Shown in pieces: positions 316 through 34,704 of a DNA stretch of 64,000 nucleotides. This DNA comes from a virus. The DNA is taken from IMG/VR virus record IMGVR_UViG_3300030329_005959, positions 32,001-96,000 of that record; one strand, 5' to 3'. Under the pieces are notes generated by a model. It had not been told where the DNA came from and did no database searches. It worked only from the letters and a program-made list of their open reading frames with translations. Position 1 is the stretch's first letter, and each line of letters opens with the position of its first letter. The translations under genes and the position numbers were made by a program.

Positions 316-1389
316 TTAGAAAATAGCCTTTAAAATAGCATCTACGGTTTTAGCGTAGGTCATTTCTTCCGCTAACTTTTGTCCCTCTGAGTTAACTTGT
401 CCCACTTTTTCTTCCGCGTTTTCCATAGCAGAAATGGCTTCGTCTTCGGTCCAAGTGTAGAAAGTTCCCTTATTAAACGGAGATTGTTCATTAAAGAACA
501 GTCCGTCAATTACGGGCATTTCTCCTGAGGGCTCGATTAAGATTGAATTTTTTTCATTAGCCCAGTCTTTATGTGAGGTGGCATTTAATACAATGCTCCA
601 CTTGCCCAAGCAGGTAGCGTTGAAGGCGGGTAGATTCCATCCTTCTCCTCCTGACAGACCAGTTAAATCAATATCAATTGCGTTTAAAAGCTCATTAACC
701 TCGCTATTTTTTTCCAAGGGGGGAATTATATTAATATTATTAAAATGTTTTCCCTCTAAGGTTTGAGCTATCATTCCTTGCATTTGCTCTGGCTTAAAAA
801 ACGGGTTATTTATACAGCAAGAGAGCTGGTATTTGTTGTTGTTCCCATATTTTTTAAGCCAAGTCTTAATGATCTTCTGGGTGTGTTTTCTATTTTCATA
901 TTTCCCCATTAACCCAAAATGGATGACATCCGTAAGATAATCTTTTTTGGTGGGATAAAAATCTTCATCTAGACCCAAAGGAATGGCTTTTGTATTTGTG
1001 GCTCCCTTAGAATCAAAATGTTTTTTAGCTTCTGTAGAGCTGAAAAAGGTTGTATCTTGATGAGAACATAAGGCCATCTCCGTTTTCGTTGGCTGATTAC
1101 ATTCGTAGAAAGTGAAAAGATGTTGATCTTTTGTTTTTCTATTTTCACTTCCATTCAAGTGCCACAATCTTAAGCATGGAATTTCTGCTTTTAGAAAATC
1201 CCATCTCCGATTAATGCCCGTTTCTATATATTTTTTAAGTTCTTCAGAAACATCAAAAGCGCTAAGATCGACATCTCCCGTAGGGAAGATGCCTATCTCA
1301 ACGTTTAGCTTATATAATTCCCTAAGAAAATTATAAGAAACGTTTCCAAAGCTTAATCTATTAAGCGGGATTTCTAAAAGAAGCTTCAT
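316..1389 (-). CDS. Glycosyltransferase, GT-B fold (GT4-like)
   Basis: GKYENRKHT and SGGEGWNLPAFNA (variant of the EGFGLP..EA motif). Confidence 0.8.
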   Translation of the reverse strand: MKLLLEIPLNRLSFGNVSYNFLRELYKLNVEIGIFPTGDVDLSAFDVSEELKKYIETGINRRWDFLKAEIPCLRLWHLNGSENRKTKDQHLFTFYECNQPTKTEMALCSHQDTTFFSSTEAKKHFDSKGATNTKAIPLGLDEDFYPTKKDYLTDVIHFGLMGKYENRKHTQKIIKTWLKKYGNNNKYQLSCCINNPFFKPEQMQGMIAQTLEGKHFNNINIIPPLEKNSEVNELLNAIDIDLTGLSGGEGWNLPAFNATCLGKWSIVLNATSHKDWANEKNSILIEPSGEMPVIDGLFFNEQSPFNKGTFYTWTEDEAISAMENAEEKVGQVNSEGQKLAEEMTYAKTVDAILKAIF

Positions 1390-5619: not shown

Positions 5620-5633
5620 TTTTCGGTTATAAT
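5606..5633 (+). promoter_or_regulatory. sigma70-type promoter of the sugar operon
   Basis: TTGAAG-N16-TATAAT, ATG 5 nt downstream. Confidence 0.5.
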
Positions 5634-5638
5634 CACCG

Positions 5639-7276
5639 ATGTCTAGTAAAAAGATCTCTGTGTGCGCTTTATGGCGCGATAGCGAATCCCATATTAATAG
5701 AACTTTAAATCAATTTGAAGATTTAGAAGAGTTGGATTTTGATTTTGAATATTATTTTTATGAAAATGACTCTAAAGATAATACTTCTACTTTGCTCCAA
5801 GCGTGGCTTAAGGACAGAGAGGGCATATTAAAAACTGAGACTTTGGGTGCTACAAAATTTGGCAGCACTCATGATCTGGAACGTATGCAGCTTCTGTCTG
5901 ACTGTAGAAACAAATGCAAAGATTTACTGTGTGATACTGAATCAGAATATACACTACTTGTTGATTCGGATATTATTTTTAATAAAGAAAATTTATTAGC
6001 CCATTTTGAGACCATCAAATCACTGGATGATTGTGTTATGTTAACTCCTAATGTGAGACAAAACATACCTGATCTTATCCAACATAATTCGCAAGATTCT
6101 TATTACGACATTTTACCTTTCTGGGACAGCGAAAAGAAAAATGCTTTAGGCTGGTCAAATTGCCCCTTCAGGAATGGCATCGACATTATGAATTGGAACC
6201 TTGGTAAACCCATTAAATGTTTTTCAGCCTTTGGTGGCTTCGCTTTAATAAAGACAGAGGTTCTTAAAAAAATCAATTGGTCTACAATAGGGGCTAGCGA
6301 GCATGTTAATTTTTGCCAAGAAATTAATGATTACGGCTCTATTTATATTGATCCCAAAAATAAAGTTTATGCCGAAGTAGAATTAGATTATTTACATTTA
6401 GAGGCTTTTAAAGAGACTGCTGTGGATAGGAGCAGGAAACCAATAACAATTGATCATGAAATTTTTACGAGTCAGAACTATAAAAAATTAAACTCTATAA
6501 AAAACCCAAAGGAGAAATCTAAGTATATTAAAGATTTGTTTTTGGAAAAAACAACCACCCAAACTGAAAAGCTTAAATTTCTTAAAAATTGTTTTCAAGG
6601 AGAAAAGGCTGTCCTAGTCTCCTGCGGCCCCTCTATTACTGAGCAAGATGAAGAAAAATTAAAATCCATCTTGGAAACCCGATTAGTTCTATCAATTAAA
6701 CAAAGCTTTGATCTTTTCTCCGAATATGTGGACATCCACTTCTATAATTGTGCTAACTATAAAAAATATGATTATTCTATACATAAGCCAATTGTATTTG
6801 AGGCTTCTACGGTTTATGGAAAGCTAGGGGAGTGTGATTTACTCTTTAAAATACCACAAGGAATGGATTATGATAACTCTTTATGTTCTCACAAAGACTT
6901 GGATTCTTGGACTTTAGAAAAGCAACCTTTTGAGAGGTGCTATGGCCCAGGAATCGAGTATGAAATAGTGTTATTTGCTGTAGAACATTTAGGCATATCC
7001 GAGTTAGTTACAATAGGTTGGGACAATAAACTTATAAACAACGGTGACGCTGATAGACAACATTTTTACGATAAAAACACAGGTTCGAACGAACAATGGA
7101 TTCAGGCGAACAAGGTTTCTAGCTCAGAGTTTTCTGTTAGCAAACTAAGCACAGAAGAAGAAATGACATCTGGCTTTATAATGGATTTTTATAATTGGCT
7201 TAAATCTAAAGGATGCGAGTTAAAAATAGTTTCTGAAATCAGCCCCGCTCCAAACGAAATTAAAACAACCTTATGA
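5639..7276 (+). CDS. Fusion: GT-A glycosyltransferase (N-term) plus Maf/DUF115-like domain (C-term)
   Basis: ENDSKDNT, VDSD, SAFGGFALI, EHVNFC; then LKNCFQGEKAVLVSCGPSI and LGISELVTIGWD typical of DUF115/Maf. Confidence 0.7.
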   Translation: MSSKKISVCALWRDSESHINRTLNQFEDLEELDFDFEYYFYENDSKDNTSTLLQAWLKDREGILKTETLGATKFGSTHDLERMQLLSDCRNKCKDLLCDTESEYTLLVDSDIIFNKENLLAHFETIKSLDDCVMLTPNVRQNIPDLIQHNSQDSYYDILPFWDSEKKNALGWSNCPFRNGIDIMNWNLGKPIKCFSAFGGFALIKTEVLKKINWSTIGASEHVNFCQEINDYGSIYIDPKNKVYAEVELDYLHLEAFKETAVDRSRKPITIDHEIFTSQNYKKLNSIKNPKEKSKYIKDLFLEKTTTQTEKLKFLKNCFQGEKAVLVSCGPSITEQDEEKLKSILETRLVLSIKQSFDLFSEYVDIHFYNCANYKKYDYSIHKPIVFEASTVYGKLGECDLLFKIPQGMDYDNSLCSHKDLDSWTLEKQPFERCYGPGIEYEIVLFAVEHLGISELVTIGWDNKLINNGDADRQHFYDKNTGSNEQWIQANKVSSSEFSVSKLSTEEEMTSGFIMDFYNWLKSKGCELKIVSEISPAPNEIKTTL

Positions 7277-8295
7277 AGACTTTTTTCAAAAACAAAAAAG
7301 TGTTAGTAACTGGAGGAACAGGCTCTCTCGGACAAAAACTTGTAGAAAGATTGCAGTCTTATGATGCTTTACCTATAGTTTACAGCAGAGATGAAGGCAA
7401 ACAGGCTCTCAACTTTAAAAACAATAACAACTTAATCAAAATTATTGGGGATGTGAGAGATTTTGACAAACTTAATACATCTCTCAAAATTCACAAACCC
7501 GATTTTATTATACATGCTGCGGCCTTAAAGAGAATTGATGATATGGAGTTTTATCCTGATGAATGTGTCAAAACAAATGTATCAGGATCGGAAAACGTGG
7601 CGAGAGCCGCCCTGCAAAACGAGATTCAGAAATGTATATTAGTATCCACCGATAAAGCCTGTAAGCCAATTAATGTTTATGGGTCTTCTAAATTTTTAGC
7701 GGAAAGATTTTTTACTAACTATGATTACAATTCGGATACGACAATCTTTTCGTCAGTTAGATATGGAAATGTGATTGCCTCCCGAGGTTCTTTTATACCA
7801 CTATGGGTTGATGCCATACAAAAAAACGAGAGTATAAAAATTACATCTACTGAATGCACCAGATTTCTGTTCACCTTAAAAGATTCTGTAGATACAGTTT
7901 TAAGCTCACTCCAAAACAGTGTGGGAGGGGAGGTATTTGTTCCCCAGATCAACTCTTATACACTTCCTGTTTGCGTTAAAGCTCTTGAATATTTGTTTGA
8001 TAAAAAAGCCAAGACTCACATTATCGGACTGAGACCTGGAGAAAAGCTGCACGAAGATATGTTAGCTGAAACAGAACTTCCGTTTACTTATAAGGTCGAG
8101 GACCATGATTTTTTGCAATTATTTAATGAAGAGCCTACCGAGCGTGTTGATTTATTGCAAATAAGACCCCAATATACCAAAAAAACATATCAAACTTTTT
8201 CGAAATATGAGGGTCCGCACTTCAACTCAGAACTTTGGGTTAAGGAGGATGTCGAAGAATTATCACGATTGATTGAGTCAGGCTTAAAATGTTAA
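7273..8295 (+). CDS. pseB: UDP-GlcNAc 4,6-dehydratase (PseB/FlaA1-like)
   Basis: TGGTGSLG, SRDE, STDKA, YGSSK, RYGNVIASRGS, GLRPGEKLHE. Confidence 0.85.
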   Translation: MKTFFKNKKVLVTGGTGSLGQKLVERLQSYDALPIVYSRDEGKQALNFKNNNNLIKIIGDVRDFDKLNTSLKIHKPDFIIHAAALKRIDDMEFYPDECVKTNVSGSENVARAALQNEIQKCILVSTDKACKPINVYGSSKFLAERFFTNYDYNSDTTIFSSVRYGNVIASRGSFIPLWVDAIQKNESIKITSTECTRFLFTLKDSVDTVLSSLQNSVGGEVFVPQINSYTLPVCVKALEYLFDKKAKTHIIGLRPGEKLHEDMLAETELPFTYKVEDHDFLQLFNEEPTERVDLLQIRPQYTKKTYQTFSKYEGPHFNSELWVKEDVEELSRLIESGLKC

Positions 8296-9545
8296 CATCA
8301 GAAGAAATATTATGGCAAAACGCCATTAGACTAATGCCGCGAGGGACGCAAACAATGAGTAAGTGTCCCGATCAGTTTGTAGAGGGGGTCTATCCCAAGT
8401 TCGCTAAAAAATCTAAAGGAGCTTATATCCAAGCTCTAGACAACAAGTGGTATTTGGACTACATGTGTGGGTTGGGTCCAATTATTTTAGGCTTTAATCA
8501 CAAGAAAACAAACAAGGCTATATCCAACCAACTCAAAAAAGGAATTATTCATTCTCTCCCTACGCTGTTGGAGCAAGAACTGGCTGCTTTAATATGTGAT
8601 AGTGTTCCGTGTGCGGAGCAGGTTAGATTTGCTAAAAATGGAACTGATGTAGATCTCGCTGCGGTGCGAATAGCCCGTTCATACACTGGTAGAGAACATA
8701 TTGTTAAGTGTGGATATCATGGATGGGGAGACTGGCACGGCATCACTCTTCGTCCCCACGGCATACCTAAGTGTCTAGAAGAATGTGTTTCTGAGTTTGA
8801 ATACAACAACCTCGCCAGTTTAGAGAGCGAACTTTCTAAGCGCCCTGTGGCGGGGGTAATAATGGAAGCTCAAGCTCTGACAAAACCACAAGAAGGCTTC
8901 TTGCAGGGGGTTAAGGACTTATGTAGGAAGCATGGAGCGGTGTTGATATTTGATGAAGTAGTCACAGGGTTTCGTTGGGCACTGGGGGGCGCTCAAGAAC
9001 ATTATGGAGTCACTCCTGACTTATGTTGTTTAGGGAAAGGAATGGCTAACGGAATGCCTCTTAGTGCCATCGCTGGAAAAAAAGAATATATGCAAGAACT
9101 TAATCATGCATTTTTTTCTATGACTTTTGGAGGAGAATGTTTATCTTTAGCCGCGTCTATAGAAACAATAAAAGAGCTTAAAAATAAAAACTATAAACAT
9201 ATTTGGGATCTAGGAAACAAGCTGGACAAAGGAATAAAAGAAGCCGCCAAAAAGCACGGGTTAGAAATTAATTTTAGTGGAAGCGCCCCTCGACACAATC
9301 TATCATTTAGCGACAAATACGATGATCCTCAAGGCATGAAAGCTCTTTTTTATCAAGAAATGTTCAGAGAGGGTGTTCTTTTCCCTAATGTCATTTATAT
9401 ACAATTTTCTCACACTTTGAAAGACATAGAAAAAACTATAACAGCAGCAGACAAATCTTTTTCTTTTCTGAAAAAAAATCTCAATAAAATAGATTTAGTT
9501 TTGAGAGGAAAAAGGAGCATTAACATTTTTAGAAAAAACACTTAA
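8289..9545 (+). CDS. PLP-dependent class III aminotransferase (GSA-aminomutase-like), probable sugar aminotransferase
   Basis: GYHGW, LIFDEVVTGFR, PDL..LGKGMANGMP; sugar-operon context. Confidence 0.85.
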   Translation: MLTSEEILWQNAIRLMPRGTQTMSKCPDQFVEGVYPKFAKKSKGAYIQALDNKWYLDYMCGLGPIILGFNHKKTNKAISNQLKKGIIHSLPTLLEQELAALICDSVPCAEQVRFAKNGTDVDLAAVRIARSYTGREHIVKCGYHGWGDWHGITLRPHGIPKCLEECVSEFEYNNLASLESELSKRPVAGVIMEAQALTKPQEGFLQGVKDLCRKHGAVLIFDEVVTGFRWALGGAQEHYGVTPDLCCLGKGMANGMPLSAIAGKKEYMQELNHAFFSMTFGGECLSLAASIETIKELKNKNYKHIWDLGNKLDKGIKEAAKKHGLEINFSGSAPRHNLSFSDKYDDPQGMKALFYQEMFREGVLFPNVIYIQFSHTLKDIEKTITAADKSFSFLKKNLNKIDLVLRGKRSINIFRKNT

Positions 9546-10486
9546 TGAAAGAAAAAATTAAAGAAATAGAACAGGCTCTTGATGCCCTTTTGCTCGATCA
9601 AGAAAACAGAGTAGATAGGTTTGATGCAAATTACATTGATGACTTTCACTTTATTCTGAAAGAAACCCATTCAATTAAAAAAACCGAAGACGAACACAAC
9701 GACAGTTTCAACAAACTTAAAAAGCTCGTTGGTGGGAATTCAAAATCTGTTAAAGAACTAGGCGAAACTATAAAAACCATAGAAGGATTAAACATATCTA
9801 AATATAAGCCAAAGGAATCTGACTCATCTACTAAATCTGAGCATAAGTATGATCAAACTTCTAGTTGGGACTCAGCTAAAGACCTCAAAGTTAATGACCA
9901 AAATAAAGATAAACTTAATCAACTTCAGGTCGATTATTCGGTTCTTAGTCATGCTAATCAAAAAGTCGCCCCTTCAGTTTTTTGGAGGCGCGACGGTTTA
10001 ACTGATGAAAAAAACCAGCTATTTAAGGATTTTTGTGCTGGAAAAAAAGTCCTATGCATAGGGCCAAGATGGGCCGAAGAGGTTTCATATATATCTAACA
10101 CCTTTAAGTGTGAAGCTCTTGGGTTAGATCTTTTTTCGAATAACAAAGATCTAGTAAAAGTCGGTGATATGCACGATATGCCTTTTGAGGATAACACCTT
10201 CGATGTAGTATATCAAAAGAACACTTTTAACAAATCTTACGACATTAGAAAATGTTTAGACGAGTGCGTGAGGGTTTTAGTCAATGGTGGCGTTATAATT
10301 TCTGACGAACTATTAGGATATAATATTGGAGTCAATGAAATTGCCCGAACGAGTATAAACAGGAATTCTTGGTATACCTCCTATCTTGATAAAACAGTAG
10401 ATGAGATTTTGTGTGACAAAGAAGTGTCCATAAACGCAAGCTGGGTGGATCTTGTTGGACTATATGCTGTTAAAATAAAAAAATAG
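9545..10486 (+). CDS. SAM-dependent methyltransferase with helical N-terminal extension
   Basis: VLCIGPR, GLDL, GDMHDMPFEDNTFDVVY, ECVRVLVNGG. Confidence 0.8.
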   Translation: MKEKIKEIEQALDALLLDQENRVDRFDANYIDDFHFILKETHSIKKTEDEHNDSFNKLKKLVGGNSKSVKELGETIKTIEGLNISKYKPKESDSSTKSEHKYDQTSSWDSAKDLKVNDQNKDKLNQLQVDYSVLSHANQKVAPSVFWRRDGLTDEKNQLFKDFCAGKKVLCIGPRWAEEVSYISNTFKCEALGLDLFSNNKDLVKVGDMHDMPFEDNTFDVVYQKNTFNKSYDIRKCLDECVRVLVNGGVIISDELLGYNIGVNEIARTSINRNSWYTSYLDKTVDEILCDKEVSINASWVDLVGLYAVKIKK

Positions 10487-10488
10487 CT

Positions 10489-11178
10489 ATGAAGTCTATA
10501 GAAAACACTCTTTTTTTTATTCAAGCGAGGACTCAATCGACAAGAGTGCCTAACAAAATGTTAAGGCCGTTTGCTGATTCGAACTTATTTGAAATAGCTG
10601 TTAAAAAACTACTCAAGTCAGAGGTCATACCTAAAGATAATTTTTATTTATCTATAATGGATGAGGAGTTGATTAAAATAGCAGAAAAGTATAATGTAAA
10701 CTATTTTACGAGAAGCGAAGAGTCTACTCAAGAACCAGTTACTTTACCGAAAGTGTTTGAGTGGCACGACAAGCTACCGTTTACACACTATGTGAATGTA
10801 AACGCTTGCAATCCACTTCTTAAAATAGAAACCATAGACAGTTTTATCCAAAAATTTTTACAAACCAAATCAAGGGGACTGTTTGGTGTCTTTGAGAAAA
10901 AAACTTTTCTTTTTGGGTGTAATCACTCAATGTTAAATGAGTTTTATGGAGGCGAAAGACATTTATCCACACTGGAAACCAAGTTTGTGGAGACCTGTTA
11001 TGAGGCAGCTCATTCTTTGTATGCTGGTTGCGTAGAAGATATCAAAAAGCACATTTATATGGGCTCATTTACTAGCGAAAATGATCCTGAGTTCTTTATT
11101 CTTGATGAAAAAGAGTGTCTAGACATTGATTGGCCTTGGCAATTTGAAATGGCGGAAAAACTTTATTCAAATTCATGA
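10489..11178 (+). CDS. Acylneuraminate/nonulosonate cytidylyltransferase (NeuA/PseF-like)
   Basis: IQARTQSTRVPNKM, NPLL, LDID. Confidence 0.85.
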   Translation: MKSIENTLFFIQARTQSTRVPNKMLRPFADSNLFEIAVKKLLKSEVIPKDNFYLSIMDEELIKIAEKYNVNYFTRSEESTQEPVTLPKVFEWHDKLPFTHYVNVNACNPLLKIETIDSFIQKFLQTKSRGLFGVFEKKTFLFGCNHSMLNEFYGGERHLSTLETKFVETCYEAAHSLYAGCVEDIKKHIYMGSFTSENDPEFFILDEKECLDIDWPWQFEMAEKLYSNS

Positions 11179-11984
11179 AAGCAGTAATAATTGGTGGAGG
11201 CTCCATTGGTCAGCGACATGCGGGGAACTTAAAAGGTTTGGGTGTTAATACTAGAATTGTAGATATTGATGAAATAGAAACCATAGACTCTATCTTAAAT
11301 AATGGCTTTGATTTTGGTTTGGTTTGCTCACCGAATCTATATCATATAGAACATTGCACAAAATTAGCGGAATATAACATTCCAACCTTCTGTGAAAAAC
11401 CTTTTTATTCTGACGTTGACGGAGTGGCTTCTCTTTTAAAAACTGTTGAAGAAAAAAAATTAATCACAATGGTAGCGGCGAACTTAAGATTCGCGGACGA
11501 GGTGAAATCTATTGATTCTACAGCTAGCTATATTAATGTCCACTTTGGCTATGACCTAAAAAAATGGAGACCAGATTCGGACCACTTGCTTTCTTATAGT
11601 GCCAATAAAGCTTTAGGTGGAGGCATTCTCCTAGACGCTATACACGAACTAGATTACCTTTATTTTAAATTTGGTAAAATACAAGACATTTTTTATAACA
11701 AAAGCAAGTTAACAAATATCACAAATGATACCGAAGATTTGGTTGTCGGGCGCATTTATTTCGAAAGCGGAACTATAGCTGATTTTTCTCTTAACTATCT
11801 CTCGGAGGATTATCAAAGATATTACGATATTTTAGAGGACGGCGTTTTAAAAAGAAAAAACATAAATATCAGCAACCAGATGTATATAGACGAAATGACT
11901 TATTTTATTGATTGCGTGGTATCAAATACCCAAGGTATGAATAGTTTTAATGAGGCAAACACACTGTTAACTACAATTATTTAA
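11175..11984 (+). CDS. Gfo/Idh/MocA NAD-dependent oxidoreductase
   Basis: IGGGSIGQRH, CEKP, GGGILLDAIHELDY. Confidence 0.85.
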   Translation: MKAVIIGGGSIGQRHAGNLKGLGVNTRIVDIDEIETIDSILNNGFDFGLVCSPNLYHIEHCTKLAEYNIPTFCEKPFYSDVDGVASLLKTVEEKKLITMVAANLRFADEVKSIDSTASYINVHFGYDLKKWRPDSDHLLSYSANKALGGGILLDAIHELDYLYFKFGKIQDIFYNKSKLTNITNDTEDLVVGRIYFESGTIADFSLNYLSEDYQRYYDILEDGVLKRKNINISNQMYIDEMTYFIDCVVSNTQGMNSFNEANTLLTTII

Positions 11985-12809
11985 ATGGAAAATTGGGTCG
12001 AAAATAAAAAAGTGCATGATGCAGAATGGGGTATGCTCTATGCTTATTGTATGGCTAATGCTGCCAAATATACCAACATAAAAGAAGAGTGGGCGAATTT
12101 ATTCAGTTTTGAAATGGGGCACCCCCTTACCTTGAGATATATTTCAGAAGGTAAGCATAAGATTAACGGGAAGGAAGGATATTTTAAAAGCAAAAATAAA
12201 CATCTGCAAAACAGAATTGATAAATATATCACCCCAACGACTGATGCTATACTAGACTTAGGCGCTGGCTGGGGAAGGCACAGCATTCAGTTGGCCTTTA
12301 ATAATCCCGATTACAATATAATCTCGGGCGAACTATCAGATACAGGGAAGGCTATCCTAGAATATTTTATCGAAAAATATGATTTGTCTATCACAATCGT
12401 TGATTTTAATTGGCATGACCATAAATCTATAATTGATTTTTTGTCTCAGCAGTTTAGCTACGACGAAGGCAAAACTTGGTCTAACTTTAAAGAGATAATT
12501 ATTTTTACTAGCAATGCTATAGAGCAGATACCCAACATTAAGTTGGAATTCTTTACAGATTTATTGAGTTTGCCTATTAAAAAAATTAGCGCTATTCACA
12601 TCGAGCCTGTGAAGTTTCAATATGATAATGCTGATTTTCCCTTCTCCGAGGAAAATGCTCATTACAACCGAAACCTTAAAACGGTATTAGATAGTTTAGT
12701 ATCTTTGGGTCTTATTAAGATCAAAGATGTGATACCGCTCTATTGGGGGCACAGTTTAAATATAGCATCACAAAACAACACTCTAATAGAATGGGTAAAA
12801 CTTTTATAA
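11985..12809 (+). CDS. SAM-dependent methyltransferase
   Basis: ILDLGAGWGRH motif I; IEQI; HIEP. Confidence 0.7.
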   Translation: MENWVENKKVHDAEWGMLYAYCMANAAKYTNIKEEWANLFSFEMGHPLTLRYISEGKHKINGKEGYFKSKNKHLQNRIDKYITPTTDAILDLGAGWGRHSIQLAFNNPDYNIISGELSDTGKAILEYFIEKYDLSITIVDFNWHDHKSIIDFLSQQFSYDEGKTWSNFKEIIIFTSNAIEQIPNIKLEFFTDLLSLPIKKISAIHIEPVKFQYDNADFPFSEENAHYNRNLKTVLDSLVSLGLIKIKDVIPLYWGHSLNIASQNNTLIEWVKLL

Positions 12810-13786
12810 TAGCTGAAGCAGGGGCAAATCACAATAGAAATTTTGACCAAGCGCTTTCTTTAATAGATGTAGCAAAAGAATCAGGGGCAACTGCGGTAAA
12901 GTTCCAAACTTATTCTTCAGAAACCCTCTATGCAGCAAGCACCCCAGATTTTGCGGGTTACAAAAACATAAGCAAACTAATAAAAGATATAGAGCTTCCC
13001 AGATCTTGGCAAAAAGATCTGAAGGATTACTGTGATGAGAGTGGGATTGAGTTTATGTCTACGCCTTTTGACGAGAAAGCTGTAGAAGAGCTTGTTGATT
13101 TAGGGGTTAAAAGACTTAAAATCTCAGGCTTTGAATCTACAGATCCTCGCTTTGTAAAATTAGTGGCGTCTACGGGTTTGCCAATTATAATGAGCATTGG
13201 AATAGGGTTTGACCTTAAATACGTAGAGTCTTTTTTAGAAATTTTTTCAGCGTATAACAATCACCTAACATTACTACACTGTAACAACGCTTACCCCACC
13301 CCCATGCAAGATGCAAACCTGCGGCAGATGGGGGTTTTATCGACGTATAAAGGTGTTGACGCAGTAGGTTTTTCTGACCATACAATTTCGACCCTAACCC
13401 CTTCTTGGGCGGTTGCTTTAGGAGCAACTGTTATTGAAAAACATTTTACTATAAGCCGCAAACTACGAGGACCAGACCACCCTTTTGCTCTTGAGCCTCT
13501 TGAACTTAAAGAAATGGTGGACAACATCCACTTGGCTGAACTAGCAATTAAAAACAAAGGTTCTGGCTTTACAAAATCTGAGAGGCCGTTTTCTAAAGCA
13601 ATGAGATCGGTGGTCTCTCTAGGGTCTATAAAAAAAGGAGAGGTTTTAACAGTTACTAACACTACTACCAAAAGGCCGTTTTTGGAGAATTCGGTTCCTG
13701 CATTTGATTATTTTAAGGTATTAGGTAAAATAGTTACAGAAGATATAGAAGACGACCAAATCTTAAACAAAAATCAAATCAAATGA
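12791..13786 (+). CDS. neuB: Nonulosonic acid synthase (NeuB/PseI family) with C-terminal SAF domain
   Basis: IIAEAGANHN, VKFQ, STPFD, LHC..AYPTP, GFSDHT, IEKHFT, GPDH; start ATG 12791. Confidence 0.93.
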   Translation: MGKTFIIAEAGANHNRNFDQALSLIDVAKESGATAVKFQTYSSETLYAASTPDFAGYKNISKLIKDIELPRSWQKDLKDYCDESGIEFMSTPFDEKAVEELVDLGVKRLKISGFESTDPRFVKLVASTGLPIIMSIGIGFDLKYVESFLEIFSAYNNHLTLLHCNNAYPTPMQDANLRQMGVLSTYKGVDAVGFSDHTISTLTPSWAVALGATVIEKHFTISRKLRGPDHPFALEPLELKEMVDNIHLAELAIKNKGSGFTKSERPFSKAMRSVVSLGSIKKGEVLTVTNTTTKRPFLENSVPAFDYFKVLGKIVTEDIEDDQILNKNQIK

Positions 13787-14610
13787 GCGACTTACAAAAA
13801 AGAATTGTAGAAGAATTAAAAGAAGACGGGATTTCTATCACTCATGTAGACGAATTATTTGGAGATACCTCTCGAAACTATTTTTCTAATTCTTTGTTGT
13901 ATTTTAATGAATTTCTATCCTCTCCACACATTAAAGAAAGATGTGATAGGATATCTTCAGGAAATCCCATCCAAGACAAGAATAAATGGTTTGAGGTAAC
14001 GGTTTATGAGTATTTGAACAGGGGCCTGAGTCTGGATGACGGAGATGTAATAAGAATGAACTTGTCTCCCGAAATTCTTTCTATCGCGGAAGCTTTTTAC
14101 GGGACTCTCCCTAAAGTTAGGAACATTCTTACTTGGGTTCACCCACAAAACCCCTCTACATCAGAAATTGGATCGCAGCGTTGGCACCGAGACAAAGAAG
14201 ATGAATCCATTTTAAAAGTTTTTATTTTATTTTCTGAAGTTGGCCCTAAAAACGGTCCCACGCAATTTATCAAGAAGTCGCAAGCGGGTGGAAAATATCA
14301 AGATATTTCATCTTTAGGAGGCGACGGATATGGGGGGTTAAACTATGAAATTCCAGAGGGAGAGCTTGTCTCTTGTGAGGGGACGGTAGGGACAATAATT
14401 TTTATGAACAACAATGGGGTTCATAAAGGAGGGTTGGTAAAAGACGGTATCAGAAGCCTAACTCACGCTTGTTTTCTAAAGCCTACAGCTCCCTTTCTCA
14501 ATAATGGAGTGTTGCCCTGTTTTGAATATGATTCCCAAGTTAATCTTTTAGACAGAGAGGGTGAGTCCTATCAAAATTTAAGCGATACCCAAAAATTTGT
14601 TCTCTCATGA
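13783..14610 (+). CDS. 2-oxoglutarate/Fe(II) dioxygenase (PhyH-like)
   Basis: WHRD, LKVFI, NGP, distal HKG facial triad. Confidence 0.75.
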   Translation: MSDLQKRIVEELKEDGISITHVDELFGDTSRNYFSNSLLYFNEFLSSPHIKERCDRISSGNPIQDKNKWFEVTVYEYLNRGLSLDDGDVIRMNLSPEILSIAEAFYGTLPKVRNILTWVHPQNPSTSEIGSQRWHRDKEDESILKVFILFSEVGPKNGPTQFIKKSQAGGKYQDISSLGGDGYGGLNYEIPEGELVSCEGTVGTIIFMNNNGVHKGGLVKDGIRSLTHACFLKPTAPFLNNGVLPCFEYDSQVNLLDREGESYQNLSDTQKFVLS

Positions 14611-15269
14611 CCGCTTTGGTAATATCGCAAGATAGACCTTGGACTCGCCAACTAATTAATAGTCTGGATAACGAGGAACATGAGATTTTTTATTCTTCTT
14701 TAATATCTCAGGAGTTAATTGAAAATATCGGCCCTGATTGGATATTTTTCTTTCACTGGTCCGAAATTGTTCCTAAAACTATATACAAAAATTATAAGTG
14801 TTGCGTAATCCACACTGGCAATTTACCTAAGGCGAGAGGAGGAAGTCCTCTGCAAAATCAAATATTAGAGGGCGTGACCGACACCCAAGTAAATATTATT
14901 GAAATGTCAGGTGAGATAGATGCTGGCGGGATATATTGCTCTGCTCCTATTTCTTTACAAGGGAGTATTACTGATATATGGCTTTCAATAGCTGATGTAA
15001 CCTCTAATTTAATAAACTTTTGTATGTCTGCAAACCCGAAAGCGGCTCCACAAAGGGGGAAGTCCCAAACATATAAACGCATTAAAAATAATAGTGTTAA
15101 CTTTAATATTGAAAAGCCACTTTCCTTCGTTTATGATCAGATTAGAATGGTGGATGATGATTTTTATCCTAAATGCCATTTGGACATCAATGGTTTTAGG
15201 TTAGAGTTTAGCAGGGCAAAACTGAAAACAGATAAAATTTTAGCCGATGTTACAATTACCAAAAAATAG
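14607..15269 (+). CDS. Sugar N-formyltransferase (Fmt-like)
   Basis: HTGNLPKARGGSPLQNQI, IDAGGI. Confidence 0.85.
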   Translation: MTALVISQDRPWTRQLINSLDNEEHEIFYSSLISQELIENIGPDWIFFFHWSEIVPKTIYKNYKCCVIHTGNLPKARGGSPLQNQILEGVTDTQVNIIEMSGEIDAGGIYCSAPISLQGSITDIWLSIADVTSNLINFCMSANPKAAPQRGKSQTYKRIKNNSVNFNIEKPLSFVYDQIRMVDDDFYPKCHLDINGFRLEFSRAKLKTDKILADVTITKK

Positions 15270-15912
15270 CGACATATTAATTTTAGCTGCTCATCCCGAT
15301 GATGAAACATTAGGGTGTGGCGCTACTGCGGCTAAACTCTCAGAGGAAGGTCACAATATCCACTTAATGACATTCACTGACGGGGTTGATGCCAGAGACG
15401 AAAAAGGAAAGGAAAACAGAAACAACAGGCTGGGCCGTATCTCCGAGATACTAGGAATTAATTCGTTTAATCATGGAGATTTTCCCGATAACAGCATGGA
15501 CGTTGTTCCCTTGTTAAAACTTTGCAAATACATAGAAAATCACTGTCCTTTTGCACCTGATTTAATTTTTACCCACCACCCCGATTGTCTTAATATAGAT
15601 CATGAAATGGTTTACCGAGCCACTTTAACCGCCTTTAGGCCGCAGTTTGGGTTAAGACAAACAATTTTGTCTTATTTTGTCCCGTCTTCAACCGATTACA
15701 ATCCTCAGGCTAACTTTAACGGGAATGTCTATGTTGACATCAAAGGCTATGTGGATAAAAAGCTAAAAGCGTTATCGGTTTATGACGAAGAGATGAGAGA
15801 ACACCCTCACAGCAGAAGCTACACTAATGTAAAAAATTTGTCTTCTACATGGGGAAGCGAAGTCGGCTTAGAGTCTGCTGAGAAATTTCAACTAATAAGA
15901 TCTGTTTCTTAA
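15247..15912 (+). CDS. PIG-L/LmbE-family N-deacetylase
   Basis: AAHPDDETLGCG, THH...NIDH. Confidence 0.9.
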   Translation: MLQLPKNSDILILAAHPDDETLGCGATAAKLSEEGHNIHLMTFTDGVDARDEKGKENRNNRLGRISEILGINSFNHGDFPDNSMDVVPLLKLCKYIENHCPFAPDLIFTHHPDCLNIDHEMVYRATLTAFRPQFGLRQTILSYFVPSSTDYNPQANFNGNVYVDIKGYVDKKLKALSVYDEEMREHPHSRSYTNVKNLSSTWGSEVGLESAEKFQLIRSVS

Positions 15913-15913
15913 A

Positions 15914-16444
15914 ATGATAGAAGGCAAGAAAGTAAATTTAACTAAAGTTGACAGAGAGAATATCGAACAACTTAGGGAATGGAGAAACAACCCGTTGTTG
16001 AGAAAATATTTTAGAGAACACCGAGAGATCAACAAAGATAATCAATCTTGTTGGTATGAAAGCAAGGTGTTGGGAGATCCTAATCAATATAACTTTGAAA
16101 TAAGGGCCAACAAAAACTCTGAACTAATCGGGCATTGCGGCCTTTATTATATTAATTGGATTAGCAGGACTGCTGAGTTTGGCATTTATATTGGAGATAG
16201 AGCCTATAGAAATGGAGGTTATGGTTCGGACACCCTTAGAACTTTAATTGGTTATGGATTTAAAGATTTAAATTTAAATAGAATTTGGTGCGAAGTTTAC
16301 GACAACAATAAATCCATTGAAGTATATAAGCATATTGGCTTTAAATACGAGGGCACATTAAGACAAAACTATTACAACGAAGGCCGCTATTGGGATGCTC
16401 ATGTTCTCGGTATGCTGAAAAGTGAATATGAATCAATCTCTTAA
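15914..16444 (+). CDS. GNAT N-acetyltransferase (PseH/RimJ-like)
   Basis: WRN, AEFGIYIG, RNGGYG, LNLNRI, YKHIGFKYEG. Confidence 0.85.
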   Translation: MIEGKKVNLTKVDRENIEQLREWRNNPLLRKYFREHREINKDNQSCWYESKVLGDPNQYNFEIRANKNSELIGHCGLYYINWISRTAEFGIYIGDRAYRNGGYGSDTLRTLIGYGFKDLNLNRIWCEVYDNNKSIEVYKHIGFKYEGTLRQNYYNEGRYWDAHVLGMLKSEYESIS

Positions 16445-17195
16445 AGACAGCAAAGTATTAATTGTAGGGACTTCCAGTTCGGTAGCCCAATACGATAAAA
16501 AATTCCTCCAAGAAAAACGAGAAAACGGATATAAGATATTATCTTATTCTGGCAACTCTCTTATTTATTTATACGACATTGGATTTAAGCCTGATTTTTT
16601 CATTTTTTTCGACCCTTTTGCCTATACTATTGGAATAGGAAATATGGGGGAGCGATGCAAAGATTGGCTAAAGGAAACGACATATATAGGGTATGAAAAC
16701 AGCTCCTTTGAGTCTTTGTTGGCTACTAATAAATTCTTAAACGGAAGCGAAAGTTTTGGATTCACTGATTTTTTAAGAAACGACTCTTTGGTTAACCTCT
16801 ATAAAGACAATCCTCCTTCAGAAATCTTTAAAGAGTGTTTGTGTGAAAATCCCACAACCGTAAATTTTGATCAGATAGAAAATTTAAACTTGTCAGACAG
16901 GCTTTACATGATAAGAAACTATGGTAATGAATTAGACAAATTTACCTATTATCTTCTGCCAGTAATTTTTAATTTCTTCAAAAACCTTTCGACTTTAGAG
17001 TGTTTGGGTTTTGGGACATTTGGGTTCGACCGATACAGGGGAACATCAGGGTCTTATTCCGAATATGTAAGAGCATATGATCAAATCTTACCTCATTTGA
17101 ATAATGTCAAAATAAACCAAAATGTTGACATTAAATTAGAGGATGATAGTTATTTCAAAAAAGTCGAAACTCTCTTTTCTAAAGATATTTCATGA
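16428..17195 (+). CDS. Hypothetical protein, possible second Maf/sialyltransferase-like enzyme
   Basis: KVLIVGTSSSV, PDF..FFD and LGF echo DUF115/GT42-type motifs; weak. Confidence 0.4.
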   Translation: MNQSLKDSKVLIVGTSSSVAQYDKKFLQEKRENGYKILSYSGNSLIYLYDIGFKPDFFIFFDPFAYTIGIGNMGERCKDWLKETTYIGYENSSFESLLATNKFLNGSESFGFTDFLRNDSLVNLYKDNPPSEIFKECLCENPTTVNFDQIENLNLSDRLYMIRNYGNELDKFTYYLLPVIFNFFKNLSTLECLGFGTFGFDRYRGTSGSYSEYVRAYDQILPHLNNVKINQNVDIKLEDDSYFKKVETLFSKDIS

Positions 17196-18238
17196 AAAAA
17201 ATAATTATAACAGGGGTGACAGGTCAAGATGGTAGCCATATGGCAGACTATTTACTCCAGAATACAGAGCACACCGTCATTGGTGGAGTAAGAAGGTTAA
17301 GTGTTGAAAACCACAAGAACATCAAGCATTTAGAAAAAAACCCTCGTTTTTATCTTATTGATTTAGATGTAACGGATGCTCATAACACTGATAATGTAAT
17401 TTCTAGGGAAAAACCCGATTATTTTATTAATTTTGCTGCGAATTCTTTTGTGGGCAGCAGTTGGGATATGCCTGTAAATCACATGCAGACTAATTGCATG
17501 GCGGTTCTCTACCAGTTAGAAGCGCTTCGAAAGCATACCCCTCACTGCCGTTATTACAACGCAGGTAGCTCTGAGGAGTTTGGGAACGTTGTGACGACTC
17601 CGCAAGCAGAAGATCATCCCTTGCGCCCCAGAAGCCCATATGGAGCCTCTAAATGCGCTGCCCGACATTTGGTAAAAGTTTACCGAGACTCTTACAAACT
17701 TTACGCGGTTCAGGGTTGGTTATTTAATCACGAAGGTGTTCGCAGAGGGGAAGAATTTGTTACTAGGAAGATCACAAAAAATGTCGCCAAAATTTTAGCA
17801 CAATATGAAACGGGCAAAGTTGTGGTCCCGATGCAATTAGGCAATTTAGACGCGAAGAGGGACTGGAGCGATGCGGAAGATTTTATTAGAGGCGTCTGGT
17901 TGATGTTAAATCAAGATAGAGAAAACCCGAAGGACTACGTTCTTTCCTCTAATGAAACACACACTATAAGAGAATTTATTGAGGAAGCTTTTAATTTTGT
18001 AGGTTTCCACAGAAACGCTTGTGAATGGAAAGGGGAAGGTCTTGAAGAAAAATACATGCACGGTCGAGATTGTTTTGTGGAAATTAATTCAGATTTTTAT
18101 AGGCCAGCAGAGGTTGACTTGCTTTTGGGCGACTCAACAAAAGCGCGTGATGAGCTTGGGTGGAAACCAAAAACCACATTTATCCAGCTTATCAAAAAAA
18201 TGGTTGACAAGGATGTGGCGTCAGTTATTACTGGGTAG
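17192..18238 (+). CDS. gmd: GDP-mannose 4,6-dehydratase
   Basis: ITGVTGQDGS, PRSPYGASK, FNHE..RRGEEFVTRKI, GNLDAKRDW, RPAEVDLLLGD. Confidence 0.95.
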   Translation: MKKIIITGVTGQDGSHMADYLLQNTEHTVIGGVRRLSVENHKNIKHLEKNPRFYLIDLDVTDAHNTDNVISREKPDYFINFAANSFVGSSWDMPVNHMQTNCMAVLYQLEALRKHTPHCRYYNAGSSEEFGNVVTTPQAEDHPLRPRSPYGASKCAARHLVKVYRDSYKLYAVQGWLFNHEGVRRGEEFVTRKITKNVAKILAQYETGKVVVPMQLGNLDAKRDWSDAEDFIRGVWLMLNQDRENPKDYVLSSNETHTIREFIEEAFNFVGFHRNACEWKGEGLEEKYMHGRDCFVEINSDFYRPAEVDLLLGDSTKARDELGWKPKTTFIQLIKKMVDKDVASVITG

Positions 18239-34702: not shown

Positions 34703-34704
34703 TT

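What the first reader, a model, noticed from the sequence alone, without database searches (positions are those of the whole stretch)
5639..18238. Phage-encoded nonulosonic acid (pseudaminic-type) biosynthesis and transfer operon: candidate virion glycan coat
Seen: 13 tightly coupled genes in a phage backbone between nrdA and recA: GT-A/Maf fusion, PseB-like dehydratase, aminotransferase, two methyltransferases, cytidylyltransferase, Gfo/Idh/MocA oxidoreductase, NeuB/PseI synthase, 2OG oxygenase, formyltransferase, PIG-L deacetylase, PseH-like GNAT, a second Maf-like ORF and Gmd. Known: PseB-C-H-G-I-F makes CMP-pseudaminic acid, and Maf (DUF115) proteins are implicated in transferring it to Ser/Thr of flagellin. 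Inference: the phage makes its own decorated nine-carbon sugar and attaches it to virion proteins for shielding or surface mimicry. Alternatives are remodelling of the host surface or DNA modification.
Basis: partly seen in the sequence, partly recalled or inferred. Interest (0 to 1): 0.9.

Follow-up and report, generated by a model that had tools for sequence, protein, structure and literature searches.

The report
Phage-encoded sialic-acid-like sugar pathway island
An uncultured ~104-kb marine tailed phage carries 14 tightly packed genes that should build, decorate, activate and attach a bacterial sialic-acid-like (pseudaminic-type) sugar, but nothing yet shows whether the sugar ends up on the phage particle or on the infected cell.

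Summary
Window 5639-18238 carries 14 (not 13) overlapping, co-oriented genes inside a real phage genome of 104 kb, about 94% complete. They are a GT-A/Maf-like fusion, a PseB-like dehydratase, a class III aminotransferase, two methyltransferases, a cytidylyltransferase, a Gfo/Idh/MocA enzyme, NeuB, a PhyH dioxygenase, a formyltransferase-like protein, a PIG-L deacetylase, a PseH-like GNAT, a minimal Maf-like protein (best fold match Maf 5MU5, Z 9.8) and Gmd.

- **Sugar type:** NeuB falls in a phage-rich clade that is sister to canonical PseI (99/96 support), so a pseudaminic-type product is likely.
- **Non-canonical route:** the genome has no PseC, PseG or NeuC/LegG. Across 48 related islands, the class III aminotransferase plus Gfo pair and the DegT aminotransferase are mutually exclusive (13 vs 34, none with both). 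None of the islands has a PseG.
- **Mosaic island:** same-backbone phages carry different gene sets at this site.
- **Export:** every island protein is soluble, and the phage encodes no exporter, priming transferase or flagellin.
- **Rivals:** an integrase and a hydroxymethylase are also absent.

The virion-coat idea is plausible but unshown. The island lies in the replication module, and no acceptor motif was found. This scan has noted similar phage islands on at least 15 other genomes. The papers searched mention such genes only as putative host-surface AMGs.

The parts
5639..7276 (+). G1, 545 aa. Two-domain glycosyltransferase: an N-terminal GT-A domain (res 1-280, DSD motif near res 108-110) fused to a C-terminal MptE/Maf-like domain (res ~281-545).
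   Evidence: AF2 model pLDDT 89. GT-A fold: VIA Z 18.8 to Mnn9 3zf8 and Z 18.2-18.4 to ColGalT1-type chains over res 1-250. DSD motif read from the sequence. C-half: PF01973 at 16.4 bits, below cut-off, at window 6557-6715. Relatives carry PF01973+PF00534 or PF01973+PF00535. 21 of the 30 nearest Atlas clusters carry PF01973. The two halves are separate ORFs in L013 and L026. The fold of the C-domain alone was not tested.
7273..8295 (+). G2, UDP-GlcNAc 4,6-dehydratase of the PseB/FnlA/CapE (inverting) type.
   Evidence: Polysacc_synt_2 E 1.2e-77. TIGR03589 PseB 262.8 bits, cut-off 407.75. Best solved relatives: H. pylori PseB 2gn4 208 bits, FnlA-type 198, CapE 193, PglF 122.
8289..9545 (+). G3, class III PLP aminotransferase (glutamate-1-semialdehyde-aminomutase-like). 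Inferred to stand in for PseC.
   Evidence: Aminotran_3 E 1e-46. PRK06209 332 bits. Mutually exclusive with DegT across 48 islands: 13 vs 34, none with both. More than 6600 relatives at E<1e-60, the best 120 at 70-79% identity.
9545..10486 (+). G4, class I SAM methyltransferase (tailoring).
   Evidence: Methyltransf_11 E 8.7e-12.
10489..11178 (+). G5, divergent cytidylyltransferase; putative CMP-nonulosonate synthetase.
   Evidence: CTP_transf_3 51.8 bits. PseF 38.5 bits and KdsB 36 bits, both far below cut-off. No solved relative by sequence. 65-73% identical in islands that also have G3 and G6, but only ~42% in DegT-type islands.
11175..11984 (+). G6, Gfo/Idh/MocA NAD(P) oxidoreductase with an intact GGGSIG motif.
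   Evidence: PF01408 and PF22725. Motif read from the sequence. Present in exactly the same 13 loci as G3.
11985..12809 (+). G7, class I SAM methyltransferase, recognisable by fold only.
   Evidence: Atlas structure TM 0.75 to class I methyltransferase clusters, feature scores 0.97-0.98. Pfam gives only Methyltransf_4 at 17 bits.
12743..13786 (+). G8, NeuB-family nonulosonate synthase with a SAF domain. The true start is probably ~50-60 nt downstream of the listed TTG.
   Evidence: NeuB E 6e-69 plus SAF. NeuB_NnaB 281.7 bits and PseI 247.3 bits, both below cut-off. In the careful ML tree its clade (100/100) is sister to labelled PseI at 99/96. Homologues align from residue ~17-21.
13783..14610 (+). 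G9, PhyH-type Fe(II)/2-oxoglutarate dioxygenase (tailoring).
   Evidence: PhyH 27.8 bits, cut-off 22. An HxD...H triad is visible in the sequence.
14607..15269 (+). G10, short formyltransferase-like protein.
   Evidence: Formyl_trans_C_2 57.4 bits and Formyl_trans_N 26.3 bits. By eye, the His and Asp of the catalytic motif are kept and the Asn of N-x-H is replaced.
15247..15912 (+). G11, PIG-L/LmbE-type N-deacetylase.
   Evidence: PIG-L E 2.6e-21. 36% identical to the PIG-L next to neuB in a Halorussus cluster.
15914..16444 (+). G12, GNAT N-acetyltransferase, PseH-like.
   Evidence: Acetyltransf_3 E 2.5e-20. TIGR03585 PseH 82.5 bits, cut-off 93.1.
16422..17195 (+). G13, 257 aa. Minimal Maf/sialyltransferase-like domain; candidate CMP-nonulosonate transferase.
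   Evidence: AF2 pLDDT 95.5. Best fold match is Maf glycosyltransferase 5mu5_A: Z 9.8, rmsd 3.6 over 179 residues, aligned to chain 260-502. Next come ST8SiaIII 7.4, MptE 7.2, ST3Gal 7.0 and CstI 5.9. 29 of 51 family members hit PF01973, and 2 are fused to CTP_transf_3. Only 68 relatives exist among 1.8 billion representatives.
17192..18238 (+). G14, GDP-mannose 4,6-dehydratase (true Gmd type). Supplies a GDP-6-deoxyhexose precursor.
   Evidence: GDP_Man_Dehyd E 6e-104. TIGR01472 329.6 bits, cut-off 415. Aquifex Gmd 2z1m 265 bits over the full length. Only 25% identical to the Bacillus Pal-like enzyme.
316..1389 (-). Extra soluble glycosyltransferase (phrog_2170); possibly works with the island.
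   Evidence: phrog_2170 E 1e-9. Its homologue lies directly next to the sugar island in L030, L037, L039 and L055.
32810..35847 (+). Two further soluble glycosyltransferases next to the tail module: GT4-like plus DUF4214 (630 aa) and GT9-like (380 aa). Possibly work with the island.
   Evidence: PF00534 27.4 bits, DUF4214, PF01075 24.7 bits. phrog_2170. Their homologues abut the sugar island in L030, L037 and L055. No membrane segments.

Best explanation
A virulent, uncultured ~104-kb tailed phage carries a mosaic 14-gene cassette in the long co-directional gene run that also holds its nucleotide and replication genes. The proposed steps below are inferred from homology, not shown.

1. The PseB-type dehydratase G2 converts host UDP-GlcNAc to the 4-keto-6-deoxy sugar.
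2. The sugar is aminated by the class III aminotransferase G3. G3 always travels with the Gfo/Idh/MocA oxidoreductase G6, and this pair replaces the usual PseC.
3. The PseH-like GNAT G12 N-acylates the amino sugar.
4. The nucleotide is removed by an enzyme the phage does not visibly encode, either the host's PseG or an unrecognised substitute.
5. NeuB (G8) condenses the free sugar with PEP.
6. The cytidylyltransferase G5 activates the product with CMP.
7. Tailoring enzymes re-decorate it: PIG-L (G11) and the formyltransferase-like G10 probably swap the N5 acyl group, and the two methyltransferases (G4, G7) and the PhyH dioxygenase (G9) add further changes.
8. The soluble Maf/sialyltransferase-like domains (G13 and the C-half of G1) transfer the sugar. 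The GT-A half of G1 probably adds a GDP-linked 6-deoxyhexose fed by Gmd (G14).

The acceptor must be reachable from the cytoplasm. My odds are roughly 40% for the phage's own virion proteins, 35% for host envelope glycan precursors, and the rest for something else.
For: - **Gene functions and coupling:**
- **Phage identity:**
- **Pseudaminic-type:** G2's best solved relative is PseB. The NeuB clade is sister to labelled PseI at 99/96 and excludes the Leg/NeuC-context references. A cellular member of that clade (Oligoflexales) sits in a PseB-PseG-NeuB-PseC context.
- **G3+G6 as a substitute for PseC:** across 48 islands, DegT is in 34 and G3 in 13, with none holding both. G3 and G6 are present in exactly the same 13.
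- **Mosaic origin:** G1, G2, PIG-L, G13 and Gmd are closest to the same-backbone phages, whereas G3, G5 and G6 are closest to another island type.
- **Transferases:** G13's best fold match is Maf 5MU5, followed by sialyltransferases. Its family is sometimes fused to a cytidylyltransferase. A G1-C-like domain occurs in 19 of 47 related sugar islands.
- **Cytoplasmic action:** no protein in the island has a membrane segment. The genome has no Wzx, no Bac_transf priming enzyme and no flagellin.
- **Virulent lifestyle:** no tyrosine integrase.
Against: - No enzyme reaches the NCBIfam equivalog cut-off of any Pse enzyme.
- PseG, NeuC/LegG and PtmE are all absent, so one obligatory step has no candidate. 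The stereochemistry of the product cannot be read from sequence.
- The G1 C-domain is linked to Maf only by weak, sub-threshold signals. It shows no profile-profile relation to the G13 family.
- G10 lacks one catalytic-motif residue, by eye.
- For the virion target specifically: the island lies between nrdA and the RecA-like gene, not among the structural genes, and no Ser/Thr-rich acceptor segments were found in the structural proteins.
- The reference set for the tree is small, and the tree is rooted on a paralogue.
Confidence: 0.72

Rival explanations
1. Host-surface remodelling. The CMP-sugar and the transferases act on host lipid-linked or envelope glycan precursors, which the host's own machinery then exports. 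The infected cell changes its surface, which would block superinfection or stop progeny phage from sticking to debris.
For: - This is the reading given in the literature for similar gene sets in uncultured phage genomes (bioRxiv 10.1101/655167).
- The island lies in the replication gene run, presumably early or middle, rather than the late operon.
- Related islands carry several GT2, GT4 and TagF-like transferases, as polysaccharide loci do.
- A GT9-like enzyme is present.
- From my own knowledge, not checked here: Maf-like transferases of Tannerella add a terminal nonulosonate to a lipid-linked glycan.
Against: - The phage has no flippase, priming phosphoglycosyltransferase, polymerase or ligase, and no protein in the island has a membrane segment.
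- It has no integrase, so classical lysogenic serotype conversion does not apply.
- A costly 14-gene pathway would have to pay off within a single lytic cycle.
Confidence: 0.33
2. Metabolic support of a host pathway. The phage boosts or redirects the host's own pseudaminic-acid supply, for example for host flagellin, pili or S-layer, without having a target of its own.
For: The absence of PseG implies dependence on a host that already runs such a pathway.
Against: - The phage brings its own candidate transferases and tailoring enzymes.
- The island's content differs between close relatives, which fits a specificity determinant better than a flux booster.
Confidence: 0.08
3. DNA hypermodification. 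The nine-carbon sugar is attached to modified bases of the phage genome to evade restriction.
For: - The island lies beside nrdAB and the replication genes.
- Phage glycosyltransferases that hypermodify DNA are known (Pyle et al. 2024, as cited in PMC12619734).
Against: - The 94%-complete genome has no thymidylate-synthase-family hydroxymethylase and no ThyX.
- The best fold relatives of the transferase are protein- or glycan-directed sialyltransferase-like enzymes.
- As far as I know, no nonulosonate has been described on DNA.
Confidence: 0.04
4. Artefact. The island is cellular DNA mis-joined to a phage contig, or the record is not a virus.
For: IMG/VR classes the record as linear with no end repeats. 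Two related contigs were binned into Flavobacteriaceae MAGs.
Against: - GC content is continuous.
- Genes are overlap-coupled across both borders.
- Several independent metagenomes give the same backbone with an island at the same site.
- An identical G1 protein is on record from 21 contigs of up to 109.7 kb.
- The MAG contigs themselves carry phage-type neighbours.
Confidence: 0.02

Closest known systems
Bacterial CMP-pseudaminic acid pathway (PseB, PseC, PseH, PseG, PseI, PseF) of Helicobacter/Campylobacter, with Maf-dependent flagellin O-glycosylation
   Same: - PseB-type dehydratase, PseH-like GNAT, NeuB-family synthase on the PseI side of the tree, a CMP-activating cytidylyltransferase, and Maf-fold candidate transferases.
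- All proteins are soluble and cytoplasmic.

   Different: - No PseC; a class III aminotransferase plus a Gfo/Idh/MocA enzyme takes its place.
- No PseG.
- No flagellin.
- The Maf-like proteins have only the central catalytic domain (G13), or have it fused to a GT-A domain (G1).
- Extra tailoring enzymes and a Gmd are present.
- The pathway is encoded by a virus.

Haloarchaeal and alphaproteobacterial nonulosonate clusters with formyltransferase, PIG-L deacetylase and Gfo/Idh/MocA genes next to neuB (e.g. Halorussus plasmid locus L074, Azospirillum L068)
   Same: The same accessory set lies around NeuB: cytidylyltransferase, Gfo/Idh/MocA, formyltransferase-like and PIG-L. The phage PIG-L is 36% identical to the Halorussus one.
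   Different: - Those clusters contain NeuC (legionaminic-type logic), and their NeuB falls in the Leg/NeuC-context group.
- The phage has a PseB-type dehydratase and no NeuC.
Virion O-glycosylation of mycobacteriophages (Freeman et al. 2023, PMC10527164, as cited in PMC12619734)
   Same: Phage-encoded soluble glycosyltransferases and methyltransferases that could decorate the phage's own particle.
   Different: - In the mycobacteriophages the glycans sit on the C-termini of the capsid and tail-tube subunits.
- Here the island is in the replication module and no Ser/Thr-rich tails were found.
- Here the phage also makes its own nine-carbon sugar donor.
Sugar-biosynthesis gene clusters noted in uncultured aquatic phage genomes (e.g. 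LBVG_26 with neuA, neuB, neuC, capD, pseA, pglC, pglD; bioRxiv 10.1101/655167)
   Same: An environmental phage genome carrying a nonulosonate synthase, a CMP-synthetase and sugar-tailoring genes.
   Different: - That cluster has neuC and was read as N-acetylneuraminic acid synthesis for altering the host surface.
- The passage found by the term search names no transferase and gives no comparative analysis; the paper was not read in full.
- The present island is PseB-type, lacks neuC and PseG, and includes Maf-like transferases.

Membership tests
CMP-pseudaminic acid pathway (PseBCHGIF) | PseB: inverting UDP-GlcNAc 4,6-dehydratase | tested here: inconclusive
   TIGR03589 262.8 bits against a cut-off of 407.75. 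The best solved relative is H. pylori PseB at 208 bits, ahead of PglF at 122. Inversion at C5 cannot be read from sequence.
CMP-pseudaminic acid pathway (PseBCHGIF) | PseC: DegT-family C4 aminotransferase | tested here: not met
   No PF01041 match anywhere in the 104-kb genome at E<=1. A class III aminotransferase occupies the position.
CMP-pseudaminic acid pathway (PseBCHGIF) | PseH: GNAT N-acetyltransferase | tested here: inconclusive
   TIGR03585 82.5 bits against a cut-off of 93.1.
CMP-pseudaminic acid pathway (PseBCHGIF) | PseG: UDP-sugar hydrolase | tested here: not met
   No TIGR03590 match in the genome at E<=10. Also none in three related viral records, and none by tblastn in 47 related islands.
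CMP-pseudaminic acid pathway (PseBCHGIF) | PseI: pseudaminic acid synthase | tested here: inconclusive
   TIGR03586 247.3 bits against a cut-off of 340.25; NeuB_NnaB scores higher at 281.7. In the tree, its clade is sister to, not inside, the labelled PseI clade (99/96).
CMP-pseudaminic acid pathway (PseBCHGIF) | PseF: CMP-pseudaminic acid synthetase | tested here: inconclusive
   CTP_transf_3 51.8 bits. TIGR03584 38.5 bits against a cut-off of 205.7. No solved relative by sequence.
Legionaminic acid pathway (LegB, C, H, G, I, F, PtmE) | LegG/NeuC hydrolysing 2-epimerase, LegB-type dehydratase and PtmE nucleotidyltransferase | tested here: not met
   No PF02350 match in the genome. LegB model: G14 71.9 bits and G2 48.4 bits against a cut-off of 475. 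No PtmE or NeuC by tblastn. NeuB groups away from the Leg/NeuC-context references.
Maf (motility accessory factor) flagellin glycosyltransferases | Central MAF_flag10/MptE-like domain with a sialyltransferase-like fold | tested here: met
   G13: best of 48,161 chains is Maf 5mu5_A (Z 9.8, rmsd 3.6, 179 residues), followed by sialyltransferases and MptE. 29 of 51 family members hit PF01973. G13 itself scores only 13.1 bits, below the cut-off of 34.6. G1's C-half has weak sequence signals only, and its fold alone was not tested.
Maf (motility accessory factor) flagellin glycosyltransferases | Flanking N- and C-terminal domains of the ~630-aa Maf architecture | tested here: not met
   G13 is 257 aa and aligns only to residues 260-502 of the 632-residue chain. 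In G1 the domain is fused to a GT-A domain instead.
Maf (motility accessory factor) flagellin glycosyltransferases | Flagellin as acceptor, and genetic linkage to flagellar genes | tested here: not met
   No Flagellin_N match in the phage genome. Whether the host's flagellin is a target cannot be tested here.
Maf (motility accessory factor) flagellin glycosyltransferases | Use of a CMP-nonulosonate donor | not testable with these tools
   Only indirect evidence: linkage to NeuB and a cytidylyltransferase, and two family members fused to CTP_transf_3.
Mycobacteriophage-type virion O-glycosylation | Glycosyltransferase genes beside the structural genes, and acceptor tails on capsid or tail-tube subunits | tested here: not met
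   The island lies between nrdA and the RecA-like gene. The highest Ser+Thr fraction in any 30-aa window of any ORF is 0.43, and there are no C-terminal tails. Only the extra glycosyltransferases at 32810-35847 border the tail module.

The most novel reading that the evidence does not exclude
This phage lineage makes a new, heavily tailored pseudaminic-type nine-carbon sugar by a route that needs neither PseC nor PseG. It then uses stripped-down Maf-type transferases to coat its own capsid or tail. This would be the first virion known to carry a virus-encoded sialic-acid-like sugar, and island swapping would give each phage strain its own sugar coat.
Probability: 0.3. Interest if true: 0.85.

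Novelty: new variant of a known kind. Interest (0 to 1): 0.65.

Why it matters
- **No cultured counterpart.** PHROGs v4 has no family matching this NeuB, cytidylyltransferase, G1 or G13. The 50,697-record phage collection gives only three weak NeuB matches, none in a cultured phage: one is a misfiled bacterial contig and two are uncultured viral records. Yet at least 47 IMG/VR contigs carry close relatives. A whole class of phage biology may therefore be visible only in metagenomes.
- **Virion surface chemistry.** If the sugar goes on the particle, acidic nine-carbon sugars would change virion charge, stickiness, host recognition and decay in the sea.
- **Infected-cell chemistry.** If the sugar goes on the cell, it would be a costly lytic-cycle surface conversion.
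- **Useful enzymes.** The comparative pattern points to a class III aminotransferase plus Gfo pair that replaces PseC, and to a pathway without PseG. Both could help in making pseudaminic-acid derivatives. The minimal 257-aa Maf-like domain is a compact model for an enzyme family that is poorly understood.

Tried and rejected
- Megablast of the island against 50,697 phage records found nothing. tblastn with G1 also found nothing.
- Sequence searches of G1, G13 and G5 against solved structures found nothing.
- BLASTP of G13 against G1 found no similarity. The profile-profile comparison of the G1-C family with the G13 family gave probability 1.4%. I therefore do not claim that the two Maf-like domains are close kin.
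- Fold searches with the whole G1 model returned only GT-A matches.
- I tested whether Gmd (G14) is the Pal-like partner of a split Bacillus-type PseB, and rejected this: 25% identity, against a full-length match to true Gmd.
- I looked for Ser/Thr-rich acceptor tails in all 101 ORFs and found none.
- The promoter and terminator scan was not above shuffled expectation: 54 vs 52.4 and 18 vs 13.2. The sigma-70-like site at 5606-5633 just upstream of G1 is therefore not evidence.
- DNA modification was checked through ThyA and ThyX; both are absent.
- Lysogenic conversion was checked through the integrase; it is absent.
- The host could not be assigned. The only hint is that two related contigs were binned into Flavobacteriaceae MAGs.
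- Literature searches found no paper that characterises a phage-encoded nonulosonate pathway. They found only passing mentions of pseI or neuABC as viral auxiliary genes.

Full report
**What is there**

Window 5639-18238 holds 14 co-oriented ORFs. Their junctions overlap by 1-23 nt or are separated by 0-2 nt. The exception is NeuB, where the listed TTG start gives a 67-nt overlap and is probably too early, because homologues align from residue 17-21.

Pfam and NCBIfam name twelve of the ORFs directly:
- G2: PseB/FnlA-like dehydratase
- G3: class III aminotransferase
- G4: methyltransferase
- G5: CTP_transf_3 cytidylyltransferase
- G6: Gfo/Idh/MocA oxidoreductase
- G8: NeuB with a SAF domain
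- G9: PhyH dioxygenase
- G10: formyltransferase-like protein
- G11: PIG-L deacetylase
- G12: PseH-like GNAT
- G14: Gmd
- G1: weakly, a family 2 glycosyltransferase

G7 is a class I SAM methyltransferase by predicted fold (TM 0.75).

**It is a phage, and the join is real**

- The window is bases 32001-96000 of a 104,265-bp IMG/VR virus record that CheckV puts at 94% complete.
- The genome encodes a large terminase, a 2362-aa tape measure, a minor tail protein, nrdAB, an SSB, a RecA-like protein, a DnaB helicase, a primase, exonucleases, a DnaE-type polymerase and a Lon-like protease.
- No tyrosine integrase is present.
- GC content runs smoothly across both borders.
- A protein identical to G1 is on record from 21 contigs, the longest 109,752 bp.
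- Contigs from other metagenomes share the backbone (nrdA 77%, RecA-like 67%, helicase 75-78% identity) and carry a sugar island at the same place (L013, L017, L026).
- No cultured phage is close. The polymerase is under 30% identical to anything in 50,697 phage records.

**The two unnamed proteins**

*G1.* It folds confidently (pLDDT 89).
- Residues 1-280 are a GT-A glycosyltransferase (Z 18.8 to Mnn9 with GDP/Mn, Z 18.2-18.4 to ColGalT1-type chains), with a DSD motif.
- Its relatives split in two. About 314-aa proteins with PF11735/PF00535 match the N-half. About 675-aa proteins with PF01973 (MptE-like, the former MAF_flag10/DUF115) plus a GT4 domain match the C-half.
- The C-half itself reaches only 16.4 bits on PF01973. 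However, 21 of its 30 nearest Atlas clusters, mostly viral, carry that family in 15-23% of their members.
- In L013 and L026 the two halves are separate genes.

*G13.* Its family is rare: 68 relatives in 1.8 billion representatives.
- 29 of 51 members touch PF01973, and two are fused to a cytidylyltransferase.
- Its model (pLDDT 95.5) matches the Maf flagellin glycosyltransferase 5MU5 best out of 48,161 chains (Z 9.8, rmsd 3.6 A, 179 residues, chain residues 260-502).
- Next come ST8SiaIII (7.4), MptE (7.2), ST3Gal (7.0) and a Campylobacter sialyltransferase (5.9). Foldseek gives the same theme weakly.
- G13 is therefore a bare Maf/sialyltransferase-like catalytic domain.

The G1-C family and the G13 family are not detectably related to each other by profile comparison.

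**Which sugar**

- G2 is nearest to the inverting enzymes: H. pylori PseB 208 bits, FnlA-type 198, CapE 193, against PglF 122.
- For NeuB, the HMM scores are ambiguous (NeuB_NnaB 281.7, PseI 247.3, both below cut-off), and so are the solved relatives (SpsE 169, PseI 159, NmNeuB 146).
- I therefore built trees with references labelled by their annotated gene context: a Rhizobium LegB-LegC-NeuC-NeuB cluster, NeuB+NeuC loci, a Moritella NeuB, and four pseI genes from PseB-C-F-G-I clusters.
- In the careful tree of 39 rows, the window's NeuB lies in a 100/100 clade of viral contigs plus MAG sequences. That clade is sister to the labelled PseI clade at 99/96 and excludes the Leg/NeuC-context references. 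The quick 87-row tree left this node open.
- One cellular member of the clade (Oligoflexales, 60% identical) sits next to PseB-like, PseG (198 bits, above cut-off) and PseC-like genes.

I take the product to be pseudaminic-type with about two-in-three confidence. The reference set is small and the root is a paralogue.

**The route is not the textbook one**

- The whole genome lacks a DegT aminotransferase, PseG and a NeuC/LegG epimerase. A PtmE reference found nothing by tblastn, which covered the window and the 47 related loci only.
- I clustered all proteins within 9 kb of NeuB in the window and in 47 related viral loci.
- NeuB is in 48 loci. The PseB/Gmd-type dehydratases (one cluster) are in 46. 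The cytidylyltransferase is in 45.
- DegT is in 34 and the class III aminotransferase in 13, with no locus having both. The Gfo/Idh/MocA enzyme is in exactly the same 13 as the class III aminotransferase.
- The G3+G6 pair is therefore a functional alternative to PseC.
- It also travels with its own cytidylyltransferase subtype: 65-73% identity within this type, about 42% to the DegT-type islands. This suggests a product that differs enough to need a matched activating enzyme.
- None of the 47 loci has a PseG or NeuC by tblastn, and three related records have none by HMM. The nucleotide-removal step is either left to the host or done by an unrecognised protein.
- Tailoring: the trio NeuB, formyltransferase-like, PIG-L recurs in phage islands and resembles a haloarchaeal neuB locus. 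This fits exchange of the N5 acyl group, which is an inference.
- G10 keeps the His and Asp of the formyltransferase motif but not the Asn, by eye.
- G14 is a true Gmd, not the Pal-like half of a Bacillus-type split PseB. It may feed the GT-A half of G1 with a GDP-6-deoxyhexose, which is also an inference.

**The island is mosaic and it swaps**

- Against the same-backbone phage L017, identities are G1 62%, G2 67%, PIG-L 70%, G13 61% and Gmd 72%.
- Against the different island type in L025, they are G3 73%, G5 72% and G6 68%.
- Same-backbone relatives carry other content instead: DegT, a second NeuB paralogue of ~277 aa without a SAF domain, a sulfotransferase-like gene, a metallo-beta-lactamase-fold gene and other methyltransferases.
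- In L026 the island lies upstream of nrdB.
- Other lineages add GT2, GT4, TagF-like and FkbM-type genes.

**Where does the sugar go**

This is not resolved.
- *For a cytoplasmic acceptor:* no island protein and none of the three extra glycosyltransferases (316-1389; 32810-35847) has a membrane segment. The genome has no Wzx flippase, no Bac_transf priming enzyme and no flagellin. Together with the absent integrase, this argues against a self-sufficient surface-conversion system and leaves phage proteins as an attractive target.
- *Against a virion target:* the island lies in the nucleotide/replication gene run, and no Ser/Thr-rich tails or segments stand out in any ORF. The multi-transferase make-up of related islands looks like a polysaccharide locus. 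The one paper I found that comments on such genes in a phage genome reads them as host-surface alteration.
- *Association of the extra transferases:* homologues of the extra glycosyltransferases lie directly beside the sugar island in other lineages. In this phage, two of them border the tail module.
- *DNA modification* is unlikely, because no ThyA-family or ThyX gene is present.

**Novelty**

- PHROGs v4 has no family for this NeuB, cytidylyltransferase, G1 or G13.
- The phage record collection gives three weak NeuB matches, one of them a bacterial contig.
- Papers in the held library mention pseI or neuABC in viral metagenomes only in passing. None found here analyses transferases or tests chemistry.
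- Virion glycosylation is known for mycobacteriophages, as cited.
- This scan's own notes list similar phage islands on at least 15 other genomes. Those are unchecked AI notes and not independent evidence, but they show the theme is recurrent.

I therefore class this as a new variant of known kinds: a bacterial Pse/Maf system and phage-encoded glycosylation. The points new to this report are the PseC-free and PseG-free route and the minimal Maf-like transferases.

**Limits**

- The host is unknown.
- Every enzymatic step is inferred from homology.

Noticed in passing
L013:4444-5277, L026:1791-2621, L029:3984-4817 and about 19 other related viral loci: A second NeuB-family paralogue of ~277 aa without a SAF domain forms its own strongly supported clade, seen only in viral contigs here (22 rows). 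It sits in many related sugar islands but not in this window. It may make a second, different ulosonic acid.
   Followed up: partly
L054 and L055 (contigs binned as Flavobacteriaceae MAGs): These 'bacterial' contigs carry the sugar island together with homologues of the phage's extra glycosyltransferases, and their NeuB nests among those of viral contigs. They are probably phage contigs binned into MAGs. This is a weak host hint for that related lineage.
   Followed up: partly
47 related viral loci L005-L051: None has a recognisable PseG or NeuC/LegG. DegT and the class III aminotransferase+Gfo pair are strictly alternative (34 vs 13 loci, none with both). This is a general feature of this family of phage islands, not only of this window.
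   Followed up: yes
window 32810-37065: A second small sugar-enzyme group lies convergent with the tail genes (37684-51519, minus strand). It holds a GT4-like protein with a DUF4214 domain, a GT9-like protein, a 258-aa unknown and a weakly GNAT-like 152-aa protein.
   Followed up: partly
window 23912-27826: The replicative polymerase looks split into three adjacent ORFs: a PHP-domain protein (245 aa), an RNase_T-type exonuclease (216 aa) and a DnaE-like polymerase (851 aa).
   Followed up: no
window 27838-30267: An 809-aa ATP-dependent Lon-like protease (phrog_4871, 690 bits) lies right after the polymerase.
   Followed up: no
window 5606-5633: A sigma-70-like site (TTGAAG, 16 nt, TATAAT) fills the only real intergenic gap, just upstream of G1. 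Such sites are no more frequent in this region than in shuffled sequence, so it is only a lead.
   Followed up: partly
L013:2300-2917 and L017:2481-3098: Same-backbone relatives carry a 205-aa sulfotransferase-like gene (Sulfotransfer_2; tested on the L013 copy only) just before their G1 homologue. This hints at sulfated glycans in sister phages.
   Followed up: no
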